Both the position numbers and the translations under genes were made by a program. Below are positions 1,307 through 17,110 of a stretch of DNA of 42,427 bases, in pieces. The notes under the pieces are model-generated. The model saw only the letters and a list, made by a program, of their open reading frames with translations. It ran no database searches and had not been told where the DNA came from. The first letter of the stretch is position 1, and every line of letters starts with the position of its first letter. Origin of the DNA: a virus (taxonomy: Duplodnaviria > Heunggongvirae > Uroviricota > Caudoviricetes); the IMG/VR virus record IMGVR_UViG_2563366875_000004, positions 1 to 42,427 of that record; one strand, given 5' to 3'.

Positions 1307-3787
1307 TTAAAAATCAACCGGATTCGGGATCAGTTTTTGTATCGTGGCTGTAACGTATTTTGCCTGGTGACGGGCATCATCCAGCGCATTGTGGCGCACG
1401 CCTTCAAATGGAATAACTGTTCTGGCATCAAAGTCGATTGTTTTTCCCAGCTCAACGATTGTGCGTACATCGCGATCGTTGTAGTAGCGCCACGGGCAGG
1501 GGATGTCCAGACGTTCGTATGAGGTGCGCAAAATTGCGTTATCGAAAGTTGCACCATTACCCCATACCTGAACGAATTTTTCATCTGAGTATTCGTTGAT
1601 GAACTCCCGAAACCGCGAAAGGGCATCCTTCAGTTTTACCTGGTCTGTTAAAATGGCAGCTCTGGCTTCACTGGACTGCTTCAGCCACCATTCGATGGTT
1701 CCACCGTCAGGAACAGCCCCTGTATTCATTGCGTCAGTCAGACTGATAACGATATAAAATACTGGCCCGATTTCCCCTGTTTGTGGGTCGAAGAAAACCG
1801 CACCAATAACCACGATGGGCGCATTGGTGTTGGTTCCCATTGTTTCAAGGTCGATCATCAGGTGGTACCACACTCTGCTGGTGGATGTGATAACGTGATG
1901 ACCGTTCACCGCAATTAAGGGATCTGCCGTCCCGCCAGTTTCATTATCGCTGGCGTGGTCCTGAGCGCTGCCAGCATTCTCCTTGTGTGGATGTTCAGCG
2001 CCTTCCATTTCCTCCGGATCATTTTCCTGAACTTCAACCTGATTCTCTTCATCGAATGTTTCCTGGTATGTTGCGTCGCCCATCACCGCGCCACAATCAG
2101 GGCAGTTGCCGCCACCGCTCTGACCGCAGGCGGTGCAGACTTTTTCCGATTCCTGTTGCGCTACTGGCTCAGGTTGTTTCGTTTCTGGCTCGTTTTGTAA
2201 CGCATTTTGGCTGTTTTGTTCCGCTTTCTGGTCGTTCTGTTCCGTTTCTTGCTGGTTCTGGTACACAGAATCGCGGGTTTCAATCCCCTTCACCCATTTC
2301 GGATCATTCGGGTCGCTAATCCCTGCAACAAATTCTCCGCGAGAGGCAGCAAGCAACTTATCGGCGTCAGGCTGGCTGATATTGGCTGCCTGCATAATTT
2401 TGTTTACTTCGTCAGCGGTAACTTTTACCGGCTCTGGTTGTGCGGTCGTGTCAGAGGCACCAGTATTTTGTTGTGAACCTGAGTACGTGCCGTTTTTACG
2501 GGCAAAATATTCTTCTTTCGTGATTTCAGTAGCCCCTGCAGCCAGCGCCTTATTCAGACCAGAAAGTTTGTTTGCACGACCATATTTTTCGCCATCCTTA
2601 TCGGTGAAGAGGAAGTAGAACGGCCCCTCACGCTCTACAGATGGTTCAGTTTCCAGCGCGCTTTCATTTTTTTTGGTATCAGATACTTCAGTTTCCACTG
2701 CATCAGTTTGTGCTGCTGACGGCTGGAGAATATCAGCAGTGTTCTGGTCTGTTTCTTCATCCTCAAACACGCCCTTTGTCGCCAGGTATTCAGTGATGTA
2801 TTTGTTCAGCGCCACGGGATCTTTGTGAATGTCGATCGGACGCTCACGGACAAGGCCAAAAATAGTCTGACGGTCGTAGCGAACGGCATCAGGTTGTTTG
2901 CGCATTGATGCGGAAATACGCTTCCAGTCTTCGCGATCTTTGTCGATAACTTCATTTTTTGCCCAGCGATGGATGCTGCCGTCAATGTTTCCGGCATTAA
3001 TATCGCCAGGCCACAGAGCGTAGGCCAGTTCTTCATCCAGCGTTTTCCATGTCTGCTTGTATTCGCGACGAATGGCGGCAGTGGCGGGGTTGATTTTTCC
3101 TGCTGAGTTTTCAGTGTGCTGCCGGTTGACTCTGGCGCGGGCAAGATCAACAACAGACGTGTATTTCCCGGTTTCTTTGCGTTCGGCTTCGCGACGTTTT
3201 TTCCAGGTGCGTAATTCTGTCTGGATCTCAGGCCATTTTGCGCCCGGCTTACATTTATGTTTAACCCACCCGATGGCGAACAGCTTTAGTTCTGAATACA
3301 TGACGTTAACTTCAGGCATTTTCATCAGTGCCTCAACGATATGCCCGTCGAATGTTGCCATGTCCTCCTGCAACAATTCCTGTGCACTAATCACCATATC
3401 AACGGTGATGTTTTCACATGTACCGAACTTAACCAGGACCGCGTTCTGTACTTCAAGGGACAGCTTGTCAAAATTGACGTTCATCGGATCGGATTCTGGT
3501 TCGACCGGAACAAAGGAAGCGGATTCCTCATCCCAGCGGTTTTCCAGCATATATTCGGTATCCCAGGAGTCGATGGCAGGGCGGGGCATGCCGGGTTTAT
3601 CCTCGCAAACAAGAAATTTATAAGCGCAGTCCTGAGCAGCCGGATATTGCTCCAGGAATTGCCAGGTAAATTTGGCTCGGGCGCGGCGTTCGTCGCCGGC
3701 TTCAATGGCAGTAGCTACAGCGACTGCACCTTCTTCCTTTATTGCCTGTTCGTCCGGAATGGCGGCGCAAATAAAGACTTTACTCAT
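1307..3787 (-). CDS. Large exonuclease-family protein (826 aa): unassigned N-terminal region, acidic/Gln-rich linker, CxxC-x7-CxxC zinc ribbon, C-terminal DnaQ-like DEDDh 3'-5' exonuclease domain
   Basis: Exo motifs visible in translation: MIDLETMG (Exo I), WGNGATFDNAIL (Exo II), HNALDDARHQA (Exo III); zinc ribbon CTACGQSGGGNCPDCG; located next to xis where lambdoid phages carry recombination genes. Confidence 0.75.
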   Translation of the reverse strand: MSKVFICAAIPDEQAIKEEGAVAVATAIEAGDERRARAKFTWQFLEQYPAAQDCAYKFLVCEDKPGMPRPAIDSWDTEYMLENRWDEESASFVPVEPESDPMNVNFDKLSLEVQNAVLVKFGTCENITVDMVISAQELLQEDMATFDGHIVEALMKMPEVNVMYSELKLFAIGWVKHKCKPGAKWPEIQTELRTWKKRREAERKETGKYTSVVDLARARVNRQHTENSAGKINPATAAIRREYKQTWKTLDEELAYALWPGDINAGNIDGSIHRWAKNEVIDKDREDWKRISASMRKQPDAVRYDRQTIFGLVRERPIDIHKDPVALNKYITEYLATKGVFEDEETDQNTADILQPSAAQTDAVETEVSDTKKNESALETEPSVEREGPFYFLFTDKDGEKYGRANKLSGLNKALAAGATEITKEEYFARKNGTYSGSQQNTGASDTTAQPEPVKVTADEVNKIMQAANISQPDADKLLAASRGEFVAGISDPNDPKWVKGIETRDSVYQNQQETEQNDQKAEQNSQNALQNEPETKQPEPVAQQESEKVCTACGQSGGGNCPDCGAVMGDATYQETFDEENQVEVQENDPEEMEGAEHPHKENAGSAQDHASDNETGGTADPLIAVNGHHVITSTSRVWYHLMIDLETMGTNTNAPIVVIGAVFFDPQTGEIGPVFYIVISLTDAMNTGAVPDGGTIEWWLKQSSEARAAILTDQVKLKDALSRFREFINEYSDEKFVQVWGNGATFDNAILRTSYERLDIPCPWRYYNDRDVRTIVELGKTIDFDARTVIPFEGVRHNALDDARHQAKYVTATIQKLIPNPVDF

Positions 3788-3867
3788 TTTGTTTTAACCT
3801 CATTACAGATTTAAGGGTGAACAAATCCCTGCCATTGCTGGCATATAAAAATGAAACCGGATATTAA

Positions 3868-4071
3868 TTACGGTGCTGTTTTAAGTCCCGCCGGGATTTC
3901 GTTATTGTCCATGTGAATAACTTTATCAACCGGATAACAGTTGCCGGGAATTTTCTGTTCCGCTGCGGCAGCCATGCATTCTTCCATTGAATCACGTATG
4001 TCAATAATAAGGTCAAGCGGCTCGCCCGTATTAAGAAAAACCGTCAGAACGAGTGCAAATGATGTATTCAT
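3868..4071 (-). CDS. Hypothetical small protein (67 aa), leftward early operon
   Basis: Internal ATG at 4069-4071 preceded by AAAGGA; ATGA overlap with stop of upstream ORF (translational coupling). Confidence 0.45.
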   Translation of the reverse strand: MNTSFALVLTVFLNTGEPLDLIIDIRDSMEECMAAAAEQKIPGNCYPVDKVIHMDNNEIPAGLKTAP

Positions 4072-4256
4072 TGCCAGTATCCTTTTTGCATCAGACGTAA
4101 ACGGGCCAGCATTGAAACAATGCATATTTGATTTAATAGCTCCCGTTCGTGTTTTCTCTTATTAATGGCATCTTCAGTAAATACAGGGTTACTGATTTTG
4201 ACACCAATTTCAAAGCAACCTTCAGACGTATTAACGTTTGGTAATAACGTTTCCAT
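4068..4256 (-). CDS. Hypothetical small protein (62 aa), leftward early operon
   Basis: ATG at 4254-4256 preceded by GAGGA at 8 nt; coupled to downstream ORF. Confidence 0.45.
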   Translation of the reverse strand: METLLPNVNTSEGCFEIGVKISNPVFTEDAINKRKHERELLNQICIVSMLARLRLMQKGYWQ

Positions 4257-4277
4257 TATCGCGTCCTCAACAATGAA

Positions 4278-4431
4278 TTTTGTGATGCGGTGCCTGGTGC
4301 CTCCAGGTGACGTTAACCAGTTAACAATTAACGCCGGATACAGAGAACCCACCCATAAGAACCAATACGGAAGTCAACTGGCCTTTTTAACTGTTCCGCG
4401 TGCGCTGAGCCGCATTCACCGCATCACAAAA
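4278..4431. repeat. Perfect 15-bp inverted repeat pair TTTTGTGATGCGGTG / CACCGCATCACAAAA separated by 124 bp
   Basis: Read directly from sequence (4278-4292 and 4417-4431); internal GTTAAC-containing sub-palindromes; lies in an ORF-free stretch. Confidence 0.6.
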
Positions 4432-4827
4432 TTCACTTTAAAAAGGGCGGACATCAGCCAGCAATGAAAACTGATGCCGCCAAAAGGTAATCAACATGGG
4501 TTGTTGCAGCGGGGTTGTCACTCAAGCGTATGGTCAACCAGACAACCCGGTGCTCCACAGGGGAGGGAGAATAGTACCCCTGCCATACTTACCGCCGCGC
4601 CATTTCGCGGATTGCCACAACCGGAAGCGTACGGTCGAATTAAATTTAACGACAAGCCTCATAGGTGAAGGCCTTCGCCGTACGCTTTCGTGTTATGCCC
4701 TGACTTTTCAGGGATATATCCTTTCAGTAAACTGTCAGTGCCGGATGCTCACCCGTGTCCGGCGCACGACCACACGTGGCAGCGTGTTGGTCTCCATTTT
4801 TAACCCAGAACCCAAATGGAGGATAAA

Positions 4828-5007
4828 ATGTCAGAACAATTTAACCCCCTGCGGAGACCTGCCTCAGCAGCACAACAAGTCGTGCTTGAAGTTGTTCGCG
4901 CGGGTAAGTTGTACGAAAAAACACAACTTTCTGAACTTTTTACACACATGCTTGACCATTACCGTGCTGAGGCGAAACGCCTGGAGCAGGAAAATAAAGC
5001 TCAATAA
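4828..5007 (+). CDS. Small hydrophilic protein (59 aa) encoded convergently to the leftward operon
   Basis: ATG at 4828 preceded by GGAGGA at optimal spacing; protein-like helical composition; strong intrinsic terminator 20 nt downstream. Confidence 0.45.
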   Translation: MSEQFNPLRRPASAAQQVVLEVVRAGKLYEKTQLSELFTHMLDHYRAEAKRLEQENKAQ

Positions 5008-5137
5008 AAGCTGCTTTAATGATCTGAGCCAGTGTGATTGCTGGCTCTTTTTGTGTTGAATCCAGGTCTGCTAATTTTTGACGAAGACAGTCTGCAGCTA
5101 TAACCTGCAAATCTGCAGGTAAATCTTTAAATTCCAT
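4940..5137 (-). CDS. Hypothetical small protein (65 aa); 3' end overlaps the plus-strand small gene and terminator antisense
   Basis: ATG at 5135-5137 preceded by GAGG; either this ORF or the convergent plus-strand ORF may be the real one in the overlap. Confidence 0.3.
   Translation of the reverse strand: MEFKDLPADLQVIAADCLRQKLADLDSTQKEPAITLAQIIKAAFIELYFPAPGVSPQHGNGQACV
5026..5052 (+). terminator. Rho-independent terminator (plus strand only)
   Basis: GAGCCAG-8 nt loop-CTGGCTC stem followed by TTTTTG; on the minus strand the hairpin is followed by no U-tract. Confidence 0.6.
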
Positions 5138-5159
5138 TATTAGCCTCGTTGGTTAGCTA

Positions 5160-5378
5160 TTAACGCGGGTATGTAATCATTCTGGCAATGCTTAATGCCG
5201 CTGCTTTTTCCAGCCTGGTTATATCTTTTTCCAGAGCGGACAGATTTTCAGCCTGCTTAGTCCTGGCTTCATTGGCCCATTTCAGATCCTGCGCTGCATT
5301 AATTTTCTGGCGCATCCACTCATAAAGTTCATCATCGGTATAGTCTGGCGCGATGATGACGGGTTCTCGTTTCTGCAT
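5160..5378 (-). CDS. Hypothetical small protein (72 aa), leftward early operon
   Basis: ATG at 5376-5378 preceded by GAGGAA. Confidence 0.5.
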   Translation of the reverse strand: MQKREPVIIAPDYTDDELYEWMRQKINAAQDLKWANEARTKQAENLSALEKDITRLEKAAALSIARMITYPR

Positions 5379-5407
5379 ACTGATTCCTCGCGGTGCTGTT
5401 TCGCTTA

Positions 5408-5536
5408 TCAGCCGTTAGATTTTGCCGAACTGGAAAGCGCCTGTTTAAACTCACTGAAGCTGAGAGCTTCTTCGCCTTCGGCAAGGCCTTCGAAGTATTC
5501 TTCGTAAGCCTTTTCCATGATTGCGTCGAAATCCAT
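5408..5536 (-). CDS. Small acidic protein (42 aa, MDFDAIMEKAYEEYFEGLAEGEEALSFSEFKQALSSSAKSNG)
   Basis: Not in the 60-aa ORF track; found by hand translation; ATG 8 nt after stop of the upstream ORF; strongly acidic composition. Confidence 0.3.
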   Translation of the reverse strand: MDFDAIMEKAYEEYFEGLAEGEEALSFSEFKQALSSSAKSNG

Positions 5537-5537
5537 A

Positions 5538-5693
5538 TCACTCACCTGAATTTCTTTCCAGCCAGCGATGCGCGCCAGATTCGGTTTTAAACGTTTTGCT
5601 TTTGGTATACGTCATCGCGGTGAATGTGCCGTCCTGGTTGGGAAACACGCCGTACACCAGAGATTCGTTGTTGCCAAGATCGATAGTATCCAT
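5538..5693 (-). CDS. Hypothetical small protein (51 aa), first ORF downstream of pL-like promoter
   Basis: Internal ATG at 5691-5693 preceded by GAGGT; the longer 82-aa form in the track has no RBS. Confidence 0.35.
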   Translation of the reverse strand: MDTIDLGNNESLVYGVFPNQDGTFTAMTYTKSKTFKTESGAHRWLERNSGE

Positions 5694-5770
5694 GCTGACC
5701 TCATTTCCCCTTAACGCCGGGGTAGCGGAACTGTTTGCTGAGAACACCGTGCGGTGTCTTGATGGATGGT

Positions 5771-5822
5771 AATTTAGTTTTCTCATGAAAATTGGTCAAG
5801 TGTTTTTGATGAGAAAACTCAA
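5771..5822 (-). promoter_or_regulatory. pL-like promoter (-35 TTGACC, 17-nt spacer, -10 TAAATT on minus strand) flanked by two operator copies
   Basis: Operators ATGAGAAAACTCAA at 5809-5822 and inverted TCATGAGAAAACTAA at 5774-5788; same 13-mer recurs between repressor and cro. Confidence 0.5.
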
Positions 5823-5885
5823 TATTTAATGCAAAATAAAGCCAATACATTGAAATGTAAGGCTTTAAAATTAGTGAAGGGGGGG

Positions 5886-6344
5886 TTATTGATGTTTGTT
5901 ACGTTTGCGAGCTTCTAGTAGCTCGGTGAATAGGCGATTAAAATTCTCAACGCGGGCACGGAGTTCGCTGATTTGTGCTTGCTGCTCTGATTTTGGAAGT
6001 GCGCGATACAATCGCAACATCTCCAACTCATCTTCCGATAAGTCTAAGGCGCTGTTGAGTGCAACTGGTGGATCTGGTGTTTTATCCTCGTCACCAAACA
6101 GTATCCAAGTTGGTGAACATTGCAATACCTCAGCCAGGCGATGCAAATTTTGCCCGCGCGGGGCTGTATGGTCGCTTTCCCATAGTGAAATTGATGAGCC
6201 AGATACGCCAGCAGCTTTGCTTAAATCGTTTTGACTTAAACCAACCTGTTTGCGTCTTTCTCTAATTCGTTGACCTAAAGTTTTCTCGTTCATATTTAGA
6301 TATCTTAATAACCCTTGACTTGAGATTCCTTGAGTGATTACCAT
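5886..6344 (-). CDS. Prophage repressor, HTH XRE/CI-type, without a LexA-like peptidase domain (152 aa; alternative start at 6293)
   Basis: HTH motif QVGLSQNDLSKAAGVSGSSISLWE; divergent from cro-like gene; C-terminal part is helical and lacks a Ser/Lys autocleavage module. Confidence 0.8.
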   Translation of the reverse strand: MVITQGISSQGLLRYLNMNEKTLGQRIRERRKQVGLSQNDLSKAAGVSGSSISLWESDHTAPRGQNLHRLAEVLQCSPTWILFGDEDKTPDPPVALNSALDLSEDELEMLRLYRALPKSEQQAQISELRARVENFNRLFTELLEARKRNKHQ

Positions 6345-6356
6345 TGAGAAAACTCA
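6315..6356 (+). promoter_or_regulatory. pR-like promoter (-35 TTGACT) with operator TGAGAAAACTCA directly downstream
   Basis: Operator 6345-6356 abuts the repressor start codon and lies upstream of the cro RBS GGAGGGG. Confidence 0.5.
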
Positions 6357-6370
6357 ACTTTGGAGGGGTG

Positions 6371-12049: not shown

Positions 12050-12199
12050 TTTTATACCTTTTGTGTTGTGTGAAGGAGCAGTATAGTCAGAAATGAGACA
12101 AGTGAAAGGGGATAGAAAGTAATAGTTTGTTTTTGTAGAATTGCTGCGGGTGCTTGAGGCTATCTGCCTCAGGCATGAACACCAAAAGGCAGATAGAGA

Positions 12200-12303
12200 A
12201 AAGCCCCAGTTAACATTACGCGTCCTGCAAGACGCTTAACATTAATCTGAGGCCATATCTATGCGACACATAGAGATTAGCCTCTTACGGACCGAAAGGT
12301 CAA
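12200..12303 (-). ncRNA. Sok-like antisense RNA with its promoter (approximate bounds)
   Basis: Minus-strand -35 TTGACC (12298-12303) and -10 TAATCT (12274-12279), 18-nt spacer, reading antisense across the mok start; 3' end not defined. Confidence 0.4.
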
Positions 12304-12320
12304 GGAGAAGCAGGCTATGA
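12261..12320 (+). CDS. mok-like upstream leader ORF (19 codons) coupled to hok
   Basis: ATG 12261; stop TGA overlaps the hok ATG (CTATGA). Confidence 0.3.
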   Translation: MRHIEISLLRTERSRRSRL

Positions 12321-15143: not shown

Positions 15144-15206
15144 TCCGACGCAACCGCAAAATCGGTTGTCGGGATTAGCACCCCGGATGTTTACGGAGCG
15201 ATATGA

Positions 15207-15226
15207 GACGCGCCCGCGTCTTTTTT
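15207..15226 (+). terminator. tR'-like intrinsic terminator
   Basis: GACGC-tetraloop-GCGTC followed by TTTTTT. Confidence 0.5.
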
Positions 15227-15390
15227 CATATCGTTTGCACAGTCACATTCGCGATTAATGGCGGGCTGTGTGGGGGAGCCGAAAGGCTCGCCGGTTTCCG
15301 TACCCGGTAGTGCTAACCCCGCACAGTTCGCCACCACGATGATTAGCACCTGACGGTGGCGATAATGTCCAAATGTACGGAGTTATCGTT

Positions 15391-15999: not shown

Positions 16000-16545
16000 T
16001 TACTGAGTGACTTTTAGCCCACTAAATTTAAAAATATACTCTGGTTCTGTTACTTTTCCATAGAGGGTCATGCTTGATTCAAGGATGCAGTCCTTTGAAT
16101 TAGGGATAAAACGCCCTGAAAATGAAACTATATCACCAGGTTTTAATTCAGAGGCCACCGTGAAAATTTCAGAGTCAGGGCTGATAAGAGTATGATGACG
16201 AGAATCGGAAAATGCGTTATTCCAGGTTTTAACTTCAATGTCTGGTGCTATCTCCAAAGCCAACACGCCGTAACCATCACTATTGGCAGAAACAGTTTTT
16301 ACAGTACCAATCCAGTTTTTAACTTTTTTATCTTTTCTTAAGGTTGCGCAAACCGCTTTGTCTCGTTTTGCTTTTATTCCGCCCAGCTTCATGTCGTTAT
16401 CAACACCTTTAGCTGATGAAATTGCGTTTGAGACCGCCTCGATGAACTTTTCCTGCTGCTCAGGCATCTGGTAAGCAAAGGCTGGTGTCTGAAATATGGT
16501 AACCGAAAACGCTATGGTCATGATTTTTGTAAAAACACTATTCAT
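16000..16545 (-). CDS. Secreted (Sec signal peptide) protein of unknown function, 181 aa; AT-rich cargo gene
   Basis: Signal peptide MNSVFTKIMTIAFSVTIFQTPAFA with AFA cleavage motif; opposite strand to the late operon; lower GC than neighbours. Confidence 0.65.
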   Translation of the reverse strand: MNSVFTKIMTIAFSVTIFQTPAFAYQMPEQQEKFIEAVSNAISSAKGVDNDMKLGGIKAKRDKAVCATLRKDKKVKNWIGTVKTVSANSDGYGVLALEIAPDIEVKTWNNAFSDSRHHTLISPDSEIFTVASELKPGDIVSFSGRFIPNSKDCILESSMTLYGKVTEPEYIFKFSGLKVTQ

Positions 16546-16737
16546 ATTTTTCCCTAAAACAAGAAATAATGAAACAAAGAGCGCTCAAATATAAGCTTGC
16601 TTAGATTACCCATCCCTTAAACCCTTATCAACAGTATGTATTTGGGTTGTATTGTTCATCATGTGTGTTTAGGGCTTTACGATCGTAAAAAGTTGAATAT
16701 CCTGTTAAGAGTTGTTACTTCGCCACACAGCTTAAAC

Positions 16738-16759
16738 CCGCCGCCAGGCGGTTTTTTTT
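16738..16759 (+). terminator. Intrinsic terminator
   Basis: CCGCC-GCCA-GGCGG followed by T8. Confidence 0.55.
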
Positions 16760-16956
16760 GTGTCCGGAAAGTGGTGCAGTACGTTAAATGCGCATGTTGT
16801 TTTTTCTAAAATTCAGAAATAATAAAAACACATGCATATATTTACGAATATTGACATAATTTTCTATTGAAAAAAGAGCCGGCATTATTAATATCCATCT
16901 TCGGTTCCGAAGGGGATGTAAAGCGCGGTCATTTTTATTTCTCTTGAGGAACCAAT

Positions 16957-17032
<76 letters not shown>

Positions 17033-17035
17033 TAT

Positions 17036-17110
<75 letters not shown>

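What the first reader, a model, noticed from the sequence alone, without database searches (positions are those of the whole stretch)
3868..5693. Cluster of six small unassigned ORFs in the pL-proximal operon, including a 42-aa highly acidic protein
The position between the immunity region and the recombination gene is where lambdoid phages carry host-takeover and anti-restriction genes. Six ORFs of 42-72 aa with RBSs and translational coupling are present and I cannot assign any of them. The 42-aa ORF (5408-5536) has 11 acidic residues and is absent from the 60-aa ORF track. No N-like Arg-rich antiterminator is visible.
Basis: partly seen in the sequence, partly recalled or inferred. Interest (0 to 1): 0.55.

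Follow-up and report, generated by a model that had tools for sequence, protein, structure and literature searches.

The report
Known dicBF operon of Qin-type prophage

Summary
The six ORFs exist as described, with ribosome-binding sites and coupled stops and starts. They are not unassignable. Five are close copies of E. coli K-12 Qin prophage genes, in the same order: ydfA (49/51 aa identical), ydfB (41/42, the "acidic 42-aa" protein), ydfC (69/72), dicB (55/62) and ydfD (44/67). They lie downstream of a promoter flanked by operator repeats and a DicA-family repressor.

Here it is a divergent variant, scoring 39 bits in Rfam against 72-77 for canonical copies. Its loop lacks the CUCCG that pairs with the ftsZ ribosome-binding site.

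The sixth ORF (4940-5137) lies in a 371-bp segment absent from K-12. Only its N-terminal ~50 aa have homologues; its tail overlaps a 59-aa gene on the opposite strand (4828-5007) that has its own terminator. That gene follows a ~87-nt leader that is conserved in at least 751 of 5,426 complete E. coli genomes. In other prophages the same leader and start codon precede at least ten different small ORFs.

Verdict: already known and of low interest. YdfA, YdfB and YdfC remain functionally uncharacterised. The leader and cassette slot and the DicF variant are modest leads.

The parts
5771..5823 (-). Early-left promoter, equivalent to dicBp (TTGACC-17-TAAATT, 5799-5771), flanked and overlapped by an inverted operator-like repeat (5772-5791 / 5804-5823). 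The 13-nt core TGAGAAAACTCAA recurs at 6345-6357, next to the cro-like gene.
   Evidence: Promoter scan and repeats. Homology to the K-12 Qin dicBF transcript begins at 5764, just downstream.
5886..6344 (-). DicA-family (CI-like) HTH repressor with a different immunity specificity. The likely start is the internal ATG at 6293.
   Evidence: Pfam HTH_3, 1.3e-16. 57% identical to K-12 DicA over 127 aa.
5538..5693 (-). ydfA (DUF1391), 51 aa; function unknown.
   Evidence: Pfam PF07151, 1.4e-28. 49/51 identical to K-12 YdfA. The AF2 model has a three-stranded sheet and a disordered tail, with no significant fold match.
5408..5536 (-). ydfB, 42 aa, acidic (10 D/E); function unknown.
   Evidence: 41/42 identical to K-12 YdfB. 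phrog_2061, 1.3e-26. Annotated ydfB in RefSeq.
5160..5378 (-). ydfC, 72 aa; function unknown.
   Evidence: 69/72 identical to K-12 YdfC. phrog_1744, 2e-38.
4940..5137 (-). 65-aa ORF beginning MEFKDLP. The N-terminal ~50 aa form a domain shared with 52-216-aa prophage proteins. The C-terminal tail is unconstrained and overlaps the plus-strand gene.
   Evidence: phrog_9419, 4e-17, and N-termini of phrog_1363/2151/6937. tblastn gives 49-51% identity over residues 1-48. Intact at 61-65 aa in 5 loci. All 4 substitutions in the tail fall on codon positions 1 or 2 of this frame.
4769..5139 (.). 371-bp segment that replaces 40 bp of K-12 Qin between ydfC and the dicF precursor region.
   Evidence: blastn against K-12 and phage Tritos. 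The whole segment is found in only 9 of 5,426 complete E. coli genomes.
4730..4830 (+). Conserved leader on the plus strand. It has a weak promoter-like site (TTTTCA-17-TAAACT) ending 7 nt before the core, hairpin 1 (~4741-4762), hairpin 2 (4769-4793), and a hairpin pairing CUCCAUUU (4794-4800) with AAAUGGAG (4815-4821) that sequesters the GGAGG Shine-Dalgarno sequence. The ATG is at 4828.
   Evidence: Fold z = -3.9. Pairing probability of the Shine-Dalgarno bases is 0.8-1.0. Covariance model R1 scores 122 bits, with a single copy in the window. The same leader precedes at least 10 different ORFs in 143 viral-contig loci. -10-like hexamers sit 5-7 nt before the core in 6 unrelated upstream contexts. 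There is no Rfam match.
4828..5007 (+). 59-aa ORF (MSEQFNPL...) antisense to the operon. It is predicted to be a two-helix hairpin; function unknown.
   Evidence: phrog_17494, 1.2e-17. Identical protein on 149 contigs of E. coli, with cluster members also in Salmonella and E. albertii. A distant relative of the same length (MSDKLINPF...) occupies the same slot. 5 of 9 substitutions against L041 are at codon position 3. AF2 pLDDT is 78.
5026..5057 (+). Intrinsic terminator of the plus-strand ORF (GAGCCAG-tgtgatt-CTGGCTC followed by TTTTTGTGTT), embedded in the coding sequence of the 65-aa ORF.
   Evidence: Terminator scan. Conserved in all 5 related loci.
4497..4768 (-). Untranslated dicF precursor region, 84% identical to K-12.
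   Evidence: Fold z = -3.1. [quoted passage not shown]
4440..4496 (-). DicF sRNA, divergent variant, with its intrinsic terminator hairpin and U-tail.
   Evidence: Rfam RF00039 gives 39.4 bits (gathering score 48), E = 1.4e-6, full length. Canonical copies score 72-77 bits. The variant is in 91 of 5,426 complete genomes and is unannotated there.
4224..4447 (-). dicF-dicB spacer and dicB 5' UTR, with a sub-threshold STnc100 match.
   Evidence: Rfam RF02076, 34 bits (gathering score 47). The same score appears at the same place in K-12, O157 and STEC316, and a partial match (33.5 bits) appears in Tritos.
4068..4256 (-). dicB, cell-division inhibitor, 62 aa.
   Evidence: Pfam PF05358, 1.3e-38. 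NCBIfam NF049927, 133 bits against a cut-off of 100. 55/62 identical to K-12 DicB.
3868..4071 (-). ydfD-family gene (DUF1482) encoding a lysis protein, 67 aa. Its start overlaps the dicB stop as ATGA.
   Evidence: Pfam PF07358, 8e-21. 44/67 identical to K-12 YdfD.
1307..3787 (-). 826-aa exonuclease in the position of ydfE. Its C-terminal domain is a DEDD 3'-5' exonuclease.
   Evidence: Pfam PF16473, 5.7e-68. Annotated as exonuclease or exonuclease VIII in related records.

Best explanation
The region is the early-left dicBF operon of an apparently complete Qin-type lambdoid prophage of E. coli. The order is promoter/operator, ydfA, ydfB, ydfC, [65-aa ORF], dicF, dicB, ydfD, exonuclease. In the lysogen a DicA-family repressor bound at operators overlapping the promoter keeps the operon off (inferred from the anatomy and from K-12 work). 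On derepression one leftward transcript is made. [quoted passage not shown] Read-through expresses DicB, which blocks FtsZ-ring formation and ManYZ-dependent phage entry, and YdfD, a lysis protein. These activities were shown for the K-12 homologues and are only inferred here. YdfA, YdfB and YdfC are conserved but have no known function. A 371-bp segment between ydfC and the dicF precursor adds two things. One is a short member of the MEFKDLP-domain family on the operon strand. The other is a convergent 59-aa gene on the opposite strand with its own conserved leader, Shine-Dalgarno sequence and terminator, that is, a moron-like cassette.
For: DNA is 96% identical to K-12 Qin over ydfABC and 84% over dicF-dicB-ydfD. 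Protein identities are 49/51, 41/42, 69/72, 55/62 and 44/67. The Pfam families DUF1391, DicB and DUF1482 and the NCBIfam DicB model all pass their cut-offs. RefSeq and phage records with 89-98% identical DNA annotate ydfD/DUF1482 and dicB; some also annotate ydfC, ydfB, DUF1391 or DicF. A full-length DicF match lies at the expected place. The repressor is 57% identical to DicA. A promoter-like site is flanked by operator repeats that recur at the cro side. Operon structure, processing and functions come from PMC5069750, PMC10448788 and PMC6832061. For the insert.
Against: DicF scores below Rfam's gathering threshold, and its loop lacks the CUCCG that pairs with the ftsZ ribosome-binding site. 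Division inhibition by the sRNA cannot therefore be assumed here. YdfD is only 66% identical to the K-12 protein. No expression or activity data exist for this element. The function of four of the six proteins is unknown, so the operon's function is only partly explained.
Confidence: 0.93

Rival explanations
1. One reading: the six ORFs are a set of novel, unassignable host-takeover or anti-restriction genes. The acidic 42-aa protein would be a candidate DNA mimic or restriction alleviator.
For: YdfA, YdfB, YdfC and the 65-aa ORF have no known function (PMC10448788). YdfB is acidic, with 10 of its 42 residues D or E.
Against: Five of the six are named K-12 genes, present in thousands of genomes: 4,763 of 5,426 have a match to the region. 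DicB and YdfD are characterised and are not anti-restriction proteins. No anti-restriction family matched, and 42 aa is far shorter than the known DNA mimics (my knowledge of Ocr and ArdA).
Confidence: 0.03
2. In the 371-bp insert only one strand codes. Either the 65-aa minus-strand ORF is real and the plus-strand ORF is spurious, which is what PGAP annotates, or the reverse.
For: PGAP annotates only the minus-strand ORF in STEC316. Frameshifted versions of the plus-strand ORF exist: L028 and L064 and P0004-P0006. The plus-strand ORF has no Pfam or PDB match.
Against: The two ORFs overlap by only 68 nt at their 3' ends. The N-terminal ~50 aa of the minus-strand ORF have homologues at about 50% identity in other phages. 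The plus-strand ORF has a conserved Shine-Dalgarno sequence and ATG that at least 10 other ORF families share. It also has a canonical terminator, a distant relative of the same length in the same slot, and third-position-biased substitutions. In the overlap, substitutions are non-synonymous in the minus frame.
Confidence: 0.2
3. The conserved ~87-nt element at 4741-4827 acts on the minus strand, as a processing or stability structure of the leftward transcript upstream of DicF. On this view it is not a plus-strand 5' leader, and the ORFs beginning at its end are incidental.
For: All three hairpins also form in the complementary RNA. K-12 keeps hairpin 1 without any ORF. RNase III processing of the dicF precursor is documented (PMC5069750). 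Covariation is too weak to decide the strand: 7 variable G-U cells favour the plus strand and 5 A-C cells favour the minus strand.
Against: Conservation ends exactly at an ATG preceded by GGAGG. At least ten ORF families of 35-104 aa start at that ATG. The element also occurs without dicF, in phiP27, L062, L029 and L041, each time with a -10-like hexamer 5-7 nt upstream. The U-G pair in hairpin 1, present in 21 of 23 sequences, is a mismatch on the minus strand.
Confidence: 0.25

Closest known systems
dicBF operon (ydfA-ydfB-ydfC-dicF-dicB-ydfD-ydfE) of cryptic prophage Qin, E. coli K-12
   Same: The gene order, strand logic, repressor-proximal position and untranslated dicF precursor region are the same. 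Protein identity is 66-98%.
   Different: The repressor has a different immunity specificity (57% identical to DicA). A 371-bp segment replaces 40 bp between ydfC and the dicF precursor. The DicF seed and loop are diverged. The exonuclease gene is intact at 826 aa, whereas ydfE is a pseudogene in K-12.
Phage Tritos, vB_EcoS-689R5, mEp460 and O157:H7 prophages carrying dicB/dicF
   Same: They have the same operon inside functional or near-complete lambdoid phages.
   Different: Tritos lacks the insert. O157 prophages replace ydfB and ydfC with a 212-aa MEFKDLP protein and carry a different 69-aa ORF behind the same leader.
Morons of lambdoid phages (an autonomous promoter-gene-terminator unit inserted in an operon; Hendrix and colleagues, from my knowledge)
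   Same: The plus-strand 59-aa gene has its own promoter-like site, Shine-Dalgarno sequence and terminator. It sits between operon genes and is absent from close relatives.
   Different: Many different cargo ORFs share the same leader up to the start codon, and the Shine-Dalgarno sequence is sequestered in a hairpin. I do not know of a description of this arrangement.
ymfI of prophage e14 (K-12)
   Same: It is an opposite-strand small gene inside the early-left region. One cassette family found behind the leader is named YmfI by one source.
   Different: K-12 ymfI itself does not carry the leader: covariance model R1 finds no match.

Membership tests
dicBF operon of Qin-type prophages | Colinear ydfA-ydfB-ydfC-dicF-dicB-ydfD downstream of a repressor-controlled promoter | tested here: met
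   Order and homology are shown. The promoter and operators are, and the DicA-family repressor. One extra 371-bp segment is present.
DicB (Pfam PF05358 / NCBIfam NF049927) | Full-length match above the curated cut-offs | tested here: met
   130.9 bits against a cut-off of 27, and 133.2 bits against a cut-off of 100.
DicB | MinC-dependent inhibition of division when expressed | not testable with these tools
   This needs expression in E. coli. It is inferred from 55/62 identity to the K-12 protein.
DicF RNA (Rfam RF00039) | Score at or above the gathering threshold (48 bits) | tested here: not met
   39.4 bits, E = 1.4e-6, over model positions 1-52. Canonical copies score 72-77 bits.
DicF RNA | Position between ydfC and dicB, with a terminator hairpin and U-tail at the 3' end | tested here: met
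DicF RNA | Loop or 3' region complementary to the ftsZ ribosome-binding site | tested here: not met
   The K-12 loop pairs at -16.9 kcal/mol and includes CUCCG against the ftsZ GGAG. The window variant pairs at -10.9 kcal/mol, no better than shuffled controls. This is an in-silico result only.
YdfA / DUF1391 (PF07151) | Pfam match above the cut-off | tested here: met
   98.7 bits against a cut-off of 27.3.
YdfD / DUF1482 (PF07358) | Pfam match above the cut-off | tested here: met
   74.1 bits against a cut-off of 25. Lysis activity was not testable.
Lambda N-type antitermination | Small Arg-rich protein encoded first in the pL operon | tested here: not met
   The first gene is ydfA. Every ORF between the promoter and the exonuclease is accounted for, and none has an Arg-rich N-terminus. 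nut sites were not searched for systematically.
Anti-restriction proteins (Ral, Ocr, ArdA and similar) | Sequence match to a known family | tested here: not met
   No such Pfam, NCBIfam or PDB hit was found for any of the proteins.
Moron (autonomous inserted gene) | Own promoter, own terminator, and absence from close relatives | tested here: inconclusive
   The terminator is clear and the gene is absent from K-12 and Tritos. The promoter is only an 8/12 consensus match, and no transcript data are available.

The most novel reading that the evidence does not exclude
The most novel reading concerns the ~87-nt plus-strand element at 4741-4827. It has two hairpins and a hairpin that sequesters the Shine-Dalgarno sequence, and it is not in Rfam. 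On this reading it is a mobile, conserved 5' leader that marks an exchangeable slot for small genes inside the early-left operon of E. coli lambdoid prophages. The slot occurs in at least 751 of 5,426 complete E. coli genomes. At least ten different ORFs of 35-104 aa start at the same ATG, including Zn-ribbon, GhoS-like and YmfI-like proteins. The cassettes would be transcribed in the lysogen, antisense to the repressed operon and just upstream of the toxic dicF, dicB and ydfD genes. The leader would gate their translation, and the transcript might also damp leaky leftward transcription. Separately, the DicF variant here (91 of 5,426 genomes) may have been retargeted away from ftsZ.
Probability: 0.4. 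Interest if true: 0.45.

Novelty: already known. Interest (0 to 1): 0.17.

Why it matters
As stated, the finding adds nothing new. It re-discovers the dicBF operon, which has been studied since the 1980s. It matters in three smaller ways. First, it removes a false "unknown gene cluster" from the scan. Second, three of these ubiquitous prophage proteins (YdfA, YdfB, YdfC) still have no known function. Third, two unannotated features came up here: a divergent DicF that annotation pipelines miss, and a conserved leader in front of interchangeable small genes on the opposite strand. Both can be tested directly with existing O157:H7 RNA-seq and Ribo-seq data and with simple reporter fusions.

Tried and rejected
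- **Sequence and fold searches for function.** The PDB sequence search gave nothing significant for YdfA, YdfB, YdfC, the 65-aa ORF or the plus-strand ORF. A weak YdfA match to head-decoration protein D (E = 0.2) probably explains that odd annotation in some phage records.
- **AF2 models.** Single-sequence models of YdfA (pLDDT 72) and of the plus-strand ORF (pLDDT 78) gave no significant Foldseek PDB hit. They are uninformative about function.
- **tblastn of the plus-strand ORF** against phage genomes found no match at E <= 1e-3.
- **Wasted genome-contig scan.** A degenerate GC-rich 18-mer from hairpin 1 returned only chance hits in high-GC genomes.
- **Covariation test of the leader.** 97% of cells are paired, but there is only one compensatory change, which is not better than shuffles. 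The alignment is too conserved, and helix 3 was fixed by the search pattern.
- **Whole-length RNA duplex energies** for DicF and ftsZ were meaningless. They were replaced by segment-wise duplexes.
- **K-12 e14 ymfI** does not carry the leader.
- **Terminators behind other cassettes.** Only some have a clear one, so "promoter-leader-ORF-terminator" is not a universal design.
- **Alternative starts rejected.** The longer upstream starts (82-aa, 94-aa and 85-aa versions) are rejected in favour of the starts that have Shine-Dalgarno sequences and match the K-12 proteins.
Full report
**Observation.** The six minus-strand ORFs are real. Using the starts that carry Shine-Dalgarno sequences, they are:

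| Coordinates | Length |
|---|---|
| 5538-5693 | 51 aa |
| 5408-5536 | 42 aa |
| 5160-5378 | 72 aa |
| 4940-5137 | 65 aa |
| 4068-4256 | 62 aa |
| 3868-4071 | 67 aa |

Each has a GAGG/AGGA motif 5-9 nt upstream of its ATG. The first pair is separated by 1 nt, and the last pair overlaps as ATGA. The 42-aa protein has 10 acidic residues, not 11.

**Identity.** Megablast of 3800-5900 against phages and complete E. coli genomes returns records that annotate the matched DNA as YdfD/DUF1482, DicB, DicF, YdfC, YdfB and DUF1391. In all, 4,763 of 5,426 complete genomes have a match.

The window was then compared directly with the K-12 Qin prophage. It shows 96% identity over 5764-5140 and 84% over 4768-3800. 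Identities to the K-12 proteins are as follows:

| Protein | Identical residues |
|---|---|
| YdfA | 49/51 |
| YdfB | 41/42 |
| YdfC | 69/72 |
| DicB | 55/62 |
| YdfD | 44/67 |

Pfam DUF1391, DicB and DUF1482 and the NCBIfam DicB model all pass their curated cut-offs. All six proteins have PHROG families.

The upstream repressor is 57% identical to DicA. A sigma-70-like site at 5799-5771 is flanked by a 20-nt inverted repeat, and the 13-nt core of that repeat recurs next to the cro-like gene. Homology to the K-12 transcript begins at 5764. Downstream lies an 826-aa exonuclease with a DEDD domain, in the position of ydfE.

So this is the dicBF operon. Its structure and functions are described in PMC5069750, PMC10448788 and PMC6832061:
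- A DicA-repressed polycistronic transcript is made.
- DicF is released from it by termination and by RNase E/III processing.
- DicB and DicF inhibit division.
- DicB protects against phages that use ManYZ.
- YdfD is a lysis protein.
- YdfA, YdfB and YdfC are uncharacterised, as the y-ome and other papers found also indicate.

Rfam finds a full-length DicF match at 4445-4496 on the minus strand. It scores only 39.4 bits, below the gathering score of 48. The K-12, O157 and Tritos copies score 72-77 bits. The terminator stem is kept and is in fact stronger. The 5' segment and the loop differ.

The K-12 loop carries CUCCG, which pairs with the ftsZ ribosome-binding site at -16.9 kcal/mol. The variant pairs no better than shuffled sequence, at -10.9 kcal/mol. 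PMC5069750 shows experimentally that this part of DicF is what represses ftsZ.

Among the prophage loci collected here there are several DicF classes that share the stem base but have different loops. This particular variant is in 91 of 5,426 complete genomes and is not annotated there. Whether it still inhibits division is open.

**The sixth ORF and the insert.** The segment 4769-5139 (371 bp) replaces 40 bp of K-12. In full it occurs in only 9 complete genomes. It holds two convergent ORFs:
- **The 65-aa minus-strand ORF.** It matches phrog_9419. Over residues 1-48/53 it also matches the N-termini of families of 121-212 aa, at about 50% identity in Stx phages. In O157 prophages a 212-aa protein with the same MEFKDLP N-terminus sits at this place.
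- **The 59-aa plus-strand ORF (4828-5007).** It has a GGAGG Shine-Dalgarno sequence and a textbook terminator at 5026-5047. It matches phrog_17494. The identical protein is on 149 contigs, and its cluster includes Salmonella and E. albertii members.

Against locus L041, 5 of the 9 substitutions in the plus-strand ORF fall on third codon positions. The four substitutions in the 68-nt overlap all hit positions 1 or 2 of the minus frame. The overlap therefore codes on the plus strand, and the tail of the 65-aa ORF is unconstrained. The 65-aa ORF is nevertheless intact in all five related loci. Frameshifted versions of the plus-strand ORF exist, in homopolymer runs, so it is not always kept. They could also be sequencing errors.

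**The leader.** The first 71 bp of the insert (4769-4839) are found in 751 of 5,426 genomes. Two scans of viral contigs gave 143 instances.

In all of them the sequence from about CCGGATGC to ATGGAGGATAAAATG is conserved. The ORFs that begin at that ATG belong to at least ten different sequence groups of 35-104 aa. These include two Zn-ribbon-like proteins, a GhoS/DUF2622-like protein and a protein named YmfI by one source. The rest are hypothetical.

The leader folds into three parts (z = -3.9):
- hairpin 1;
- hairpin 2;
- a hairpin pairing CUCCAUU(U) with (A)AAUGGAG.

In the third hairpin the Shine-Dalgarno bases are paired with probability 0.8-1.0.

The element also occurs away from dicF, in phiP27, L062, L029 and L041. 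In six unrelated upstream contexts a -10-like hexamer ends 5-7 nt before the conserved core. This suggests that the core starts at a plus-strand transcription start.

Hairpin 2 exists in two mirror-image versions. Pair counting gives 97% pairing but only one compensatory change, which is not significant. G-U against A-C counts do not decide the strand.

A covariance model finds one copy in the window. It finds 31-37-bit remnants in K-12 Qin and Tritos, consisting of the promoter-like site, hairpin 1 and a short hairpin but no ORF. It finds none at e14 ymfI. Rfam has no family for the element.

I read this as a moron-like slot with a shared, translationally gated leader. The main rival is that the hairpins serve the leftward transcript instead.

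**Function searches.** No solved-structure relatives were found for any of these proteins. AF2 gives a three-stranded sheet with a disordered tail for YdfA, and a two-helix hairpin for the plus-strand ORF. Neither has a significant fold match.

**Verdict.** The finding as written is already explained. It is the dicBF operon of a Qin-type prophage, so its interest is low. The divergent DicF and the conserved leader/cassette slot are worth a note rather than a headline.

Noticed in passing
window 4440-4496 (-): The DicF homologue is a divergent variant: 39 bits in Rfam against 72-77 for canonical copies. Its loop lacks the CUCCG that pairs with the ftsZ ribosome-binding site. It is present in 91 of 5,426 complete E. 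coli genomes and is unannotated there. Several DicF loop classes exist among related prophages.
   Followed up: partly
window 4730-4830 (+); also L004 2462-2562 and L005 2462-2561: A conserved ~87-nt leader with two hairpins and a hairpin that sequesters the Shine-Dalgarno sequence. It precedes at least ten different small ORFs that start at the same ATG, on the strand opposite the early-left operon. It is found in 751 of 5,426 complete E. coli genomes and has no Rfam family.
   Followed up: partly
loci L111, L114, L135, L148 versus the window (hairpin 2, window 4769-4793): Hairpin 2 of the leader occurs in two versions that are near reverse complements of each other (GACCACACGTGACAGCGTGTTGGTC and GACCACACGCTGTCACGTGTGGTC). 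It looks as if the palindromic segment had been inverted.
   Followed up: no
L003 3573-3641 (K-12 Qin, between ydfC and dicF): K-12 keeps a remnant of the leader without any ORF: the promoter-like TTTTCA-17-TAAACT, hairpin 1 and a short CTCCAC..GTGGAG hairpin. An antisense transcript there could be looked for in K-12 transcription-start data.
   Followed up: partly
window 4224-4447 (-): There is a sub-threshold match to Salmonella sRNA family STnc100 (34 bits, gathering score 47) in the dicF-dicB spacer. The same score appears at the same place in K-12, O157 and STEC316, and Tritos has a partial match. STnc100 is therefore probably the homologous dicB 5' UTR region.
   Followed up: no
window 12148-12319 (+): Rfam sok antitoxin RNA (108 bits). 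This implies a hok/sok-type type I toxin-antitoxin locus inside the prophage.
   Followed up: no
window 15150-15338 (+): An isrK Hfq-binding RNA (74 bits) lies immediately before a C4 antisense RNA (77 bits), the arrangement known from anti-Q / ant-type regulatory modules.
   Followed up: no
window 16957-17107 (+): Two adjacent tRNA genes are found by Rfam in a low-GC stretch (GC 0.385 at 16001-17000).
   Followed up: no
window 5772-5823 and 6345-6357: The 13-nt motif TGAGAAAACTCAA is repeated at the leftward promoter, as an inverted pair, and again at the repressor/cro junction. These are candidate OL and OR operators of this immunity type.
   Followed up: partly
phage records H1, H2, H4: Some phage records annotate a "head-DNA stabilization protein D" in this operon. 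YdfA has only a chance-level similarity to head-decoration protein D (E = 0.2), so this is probably a mis-annotation.
   Followed up: partly
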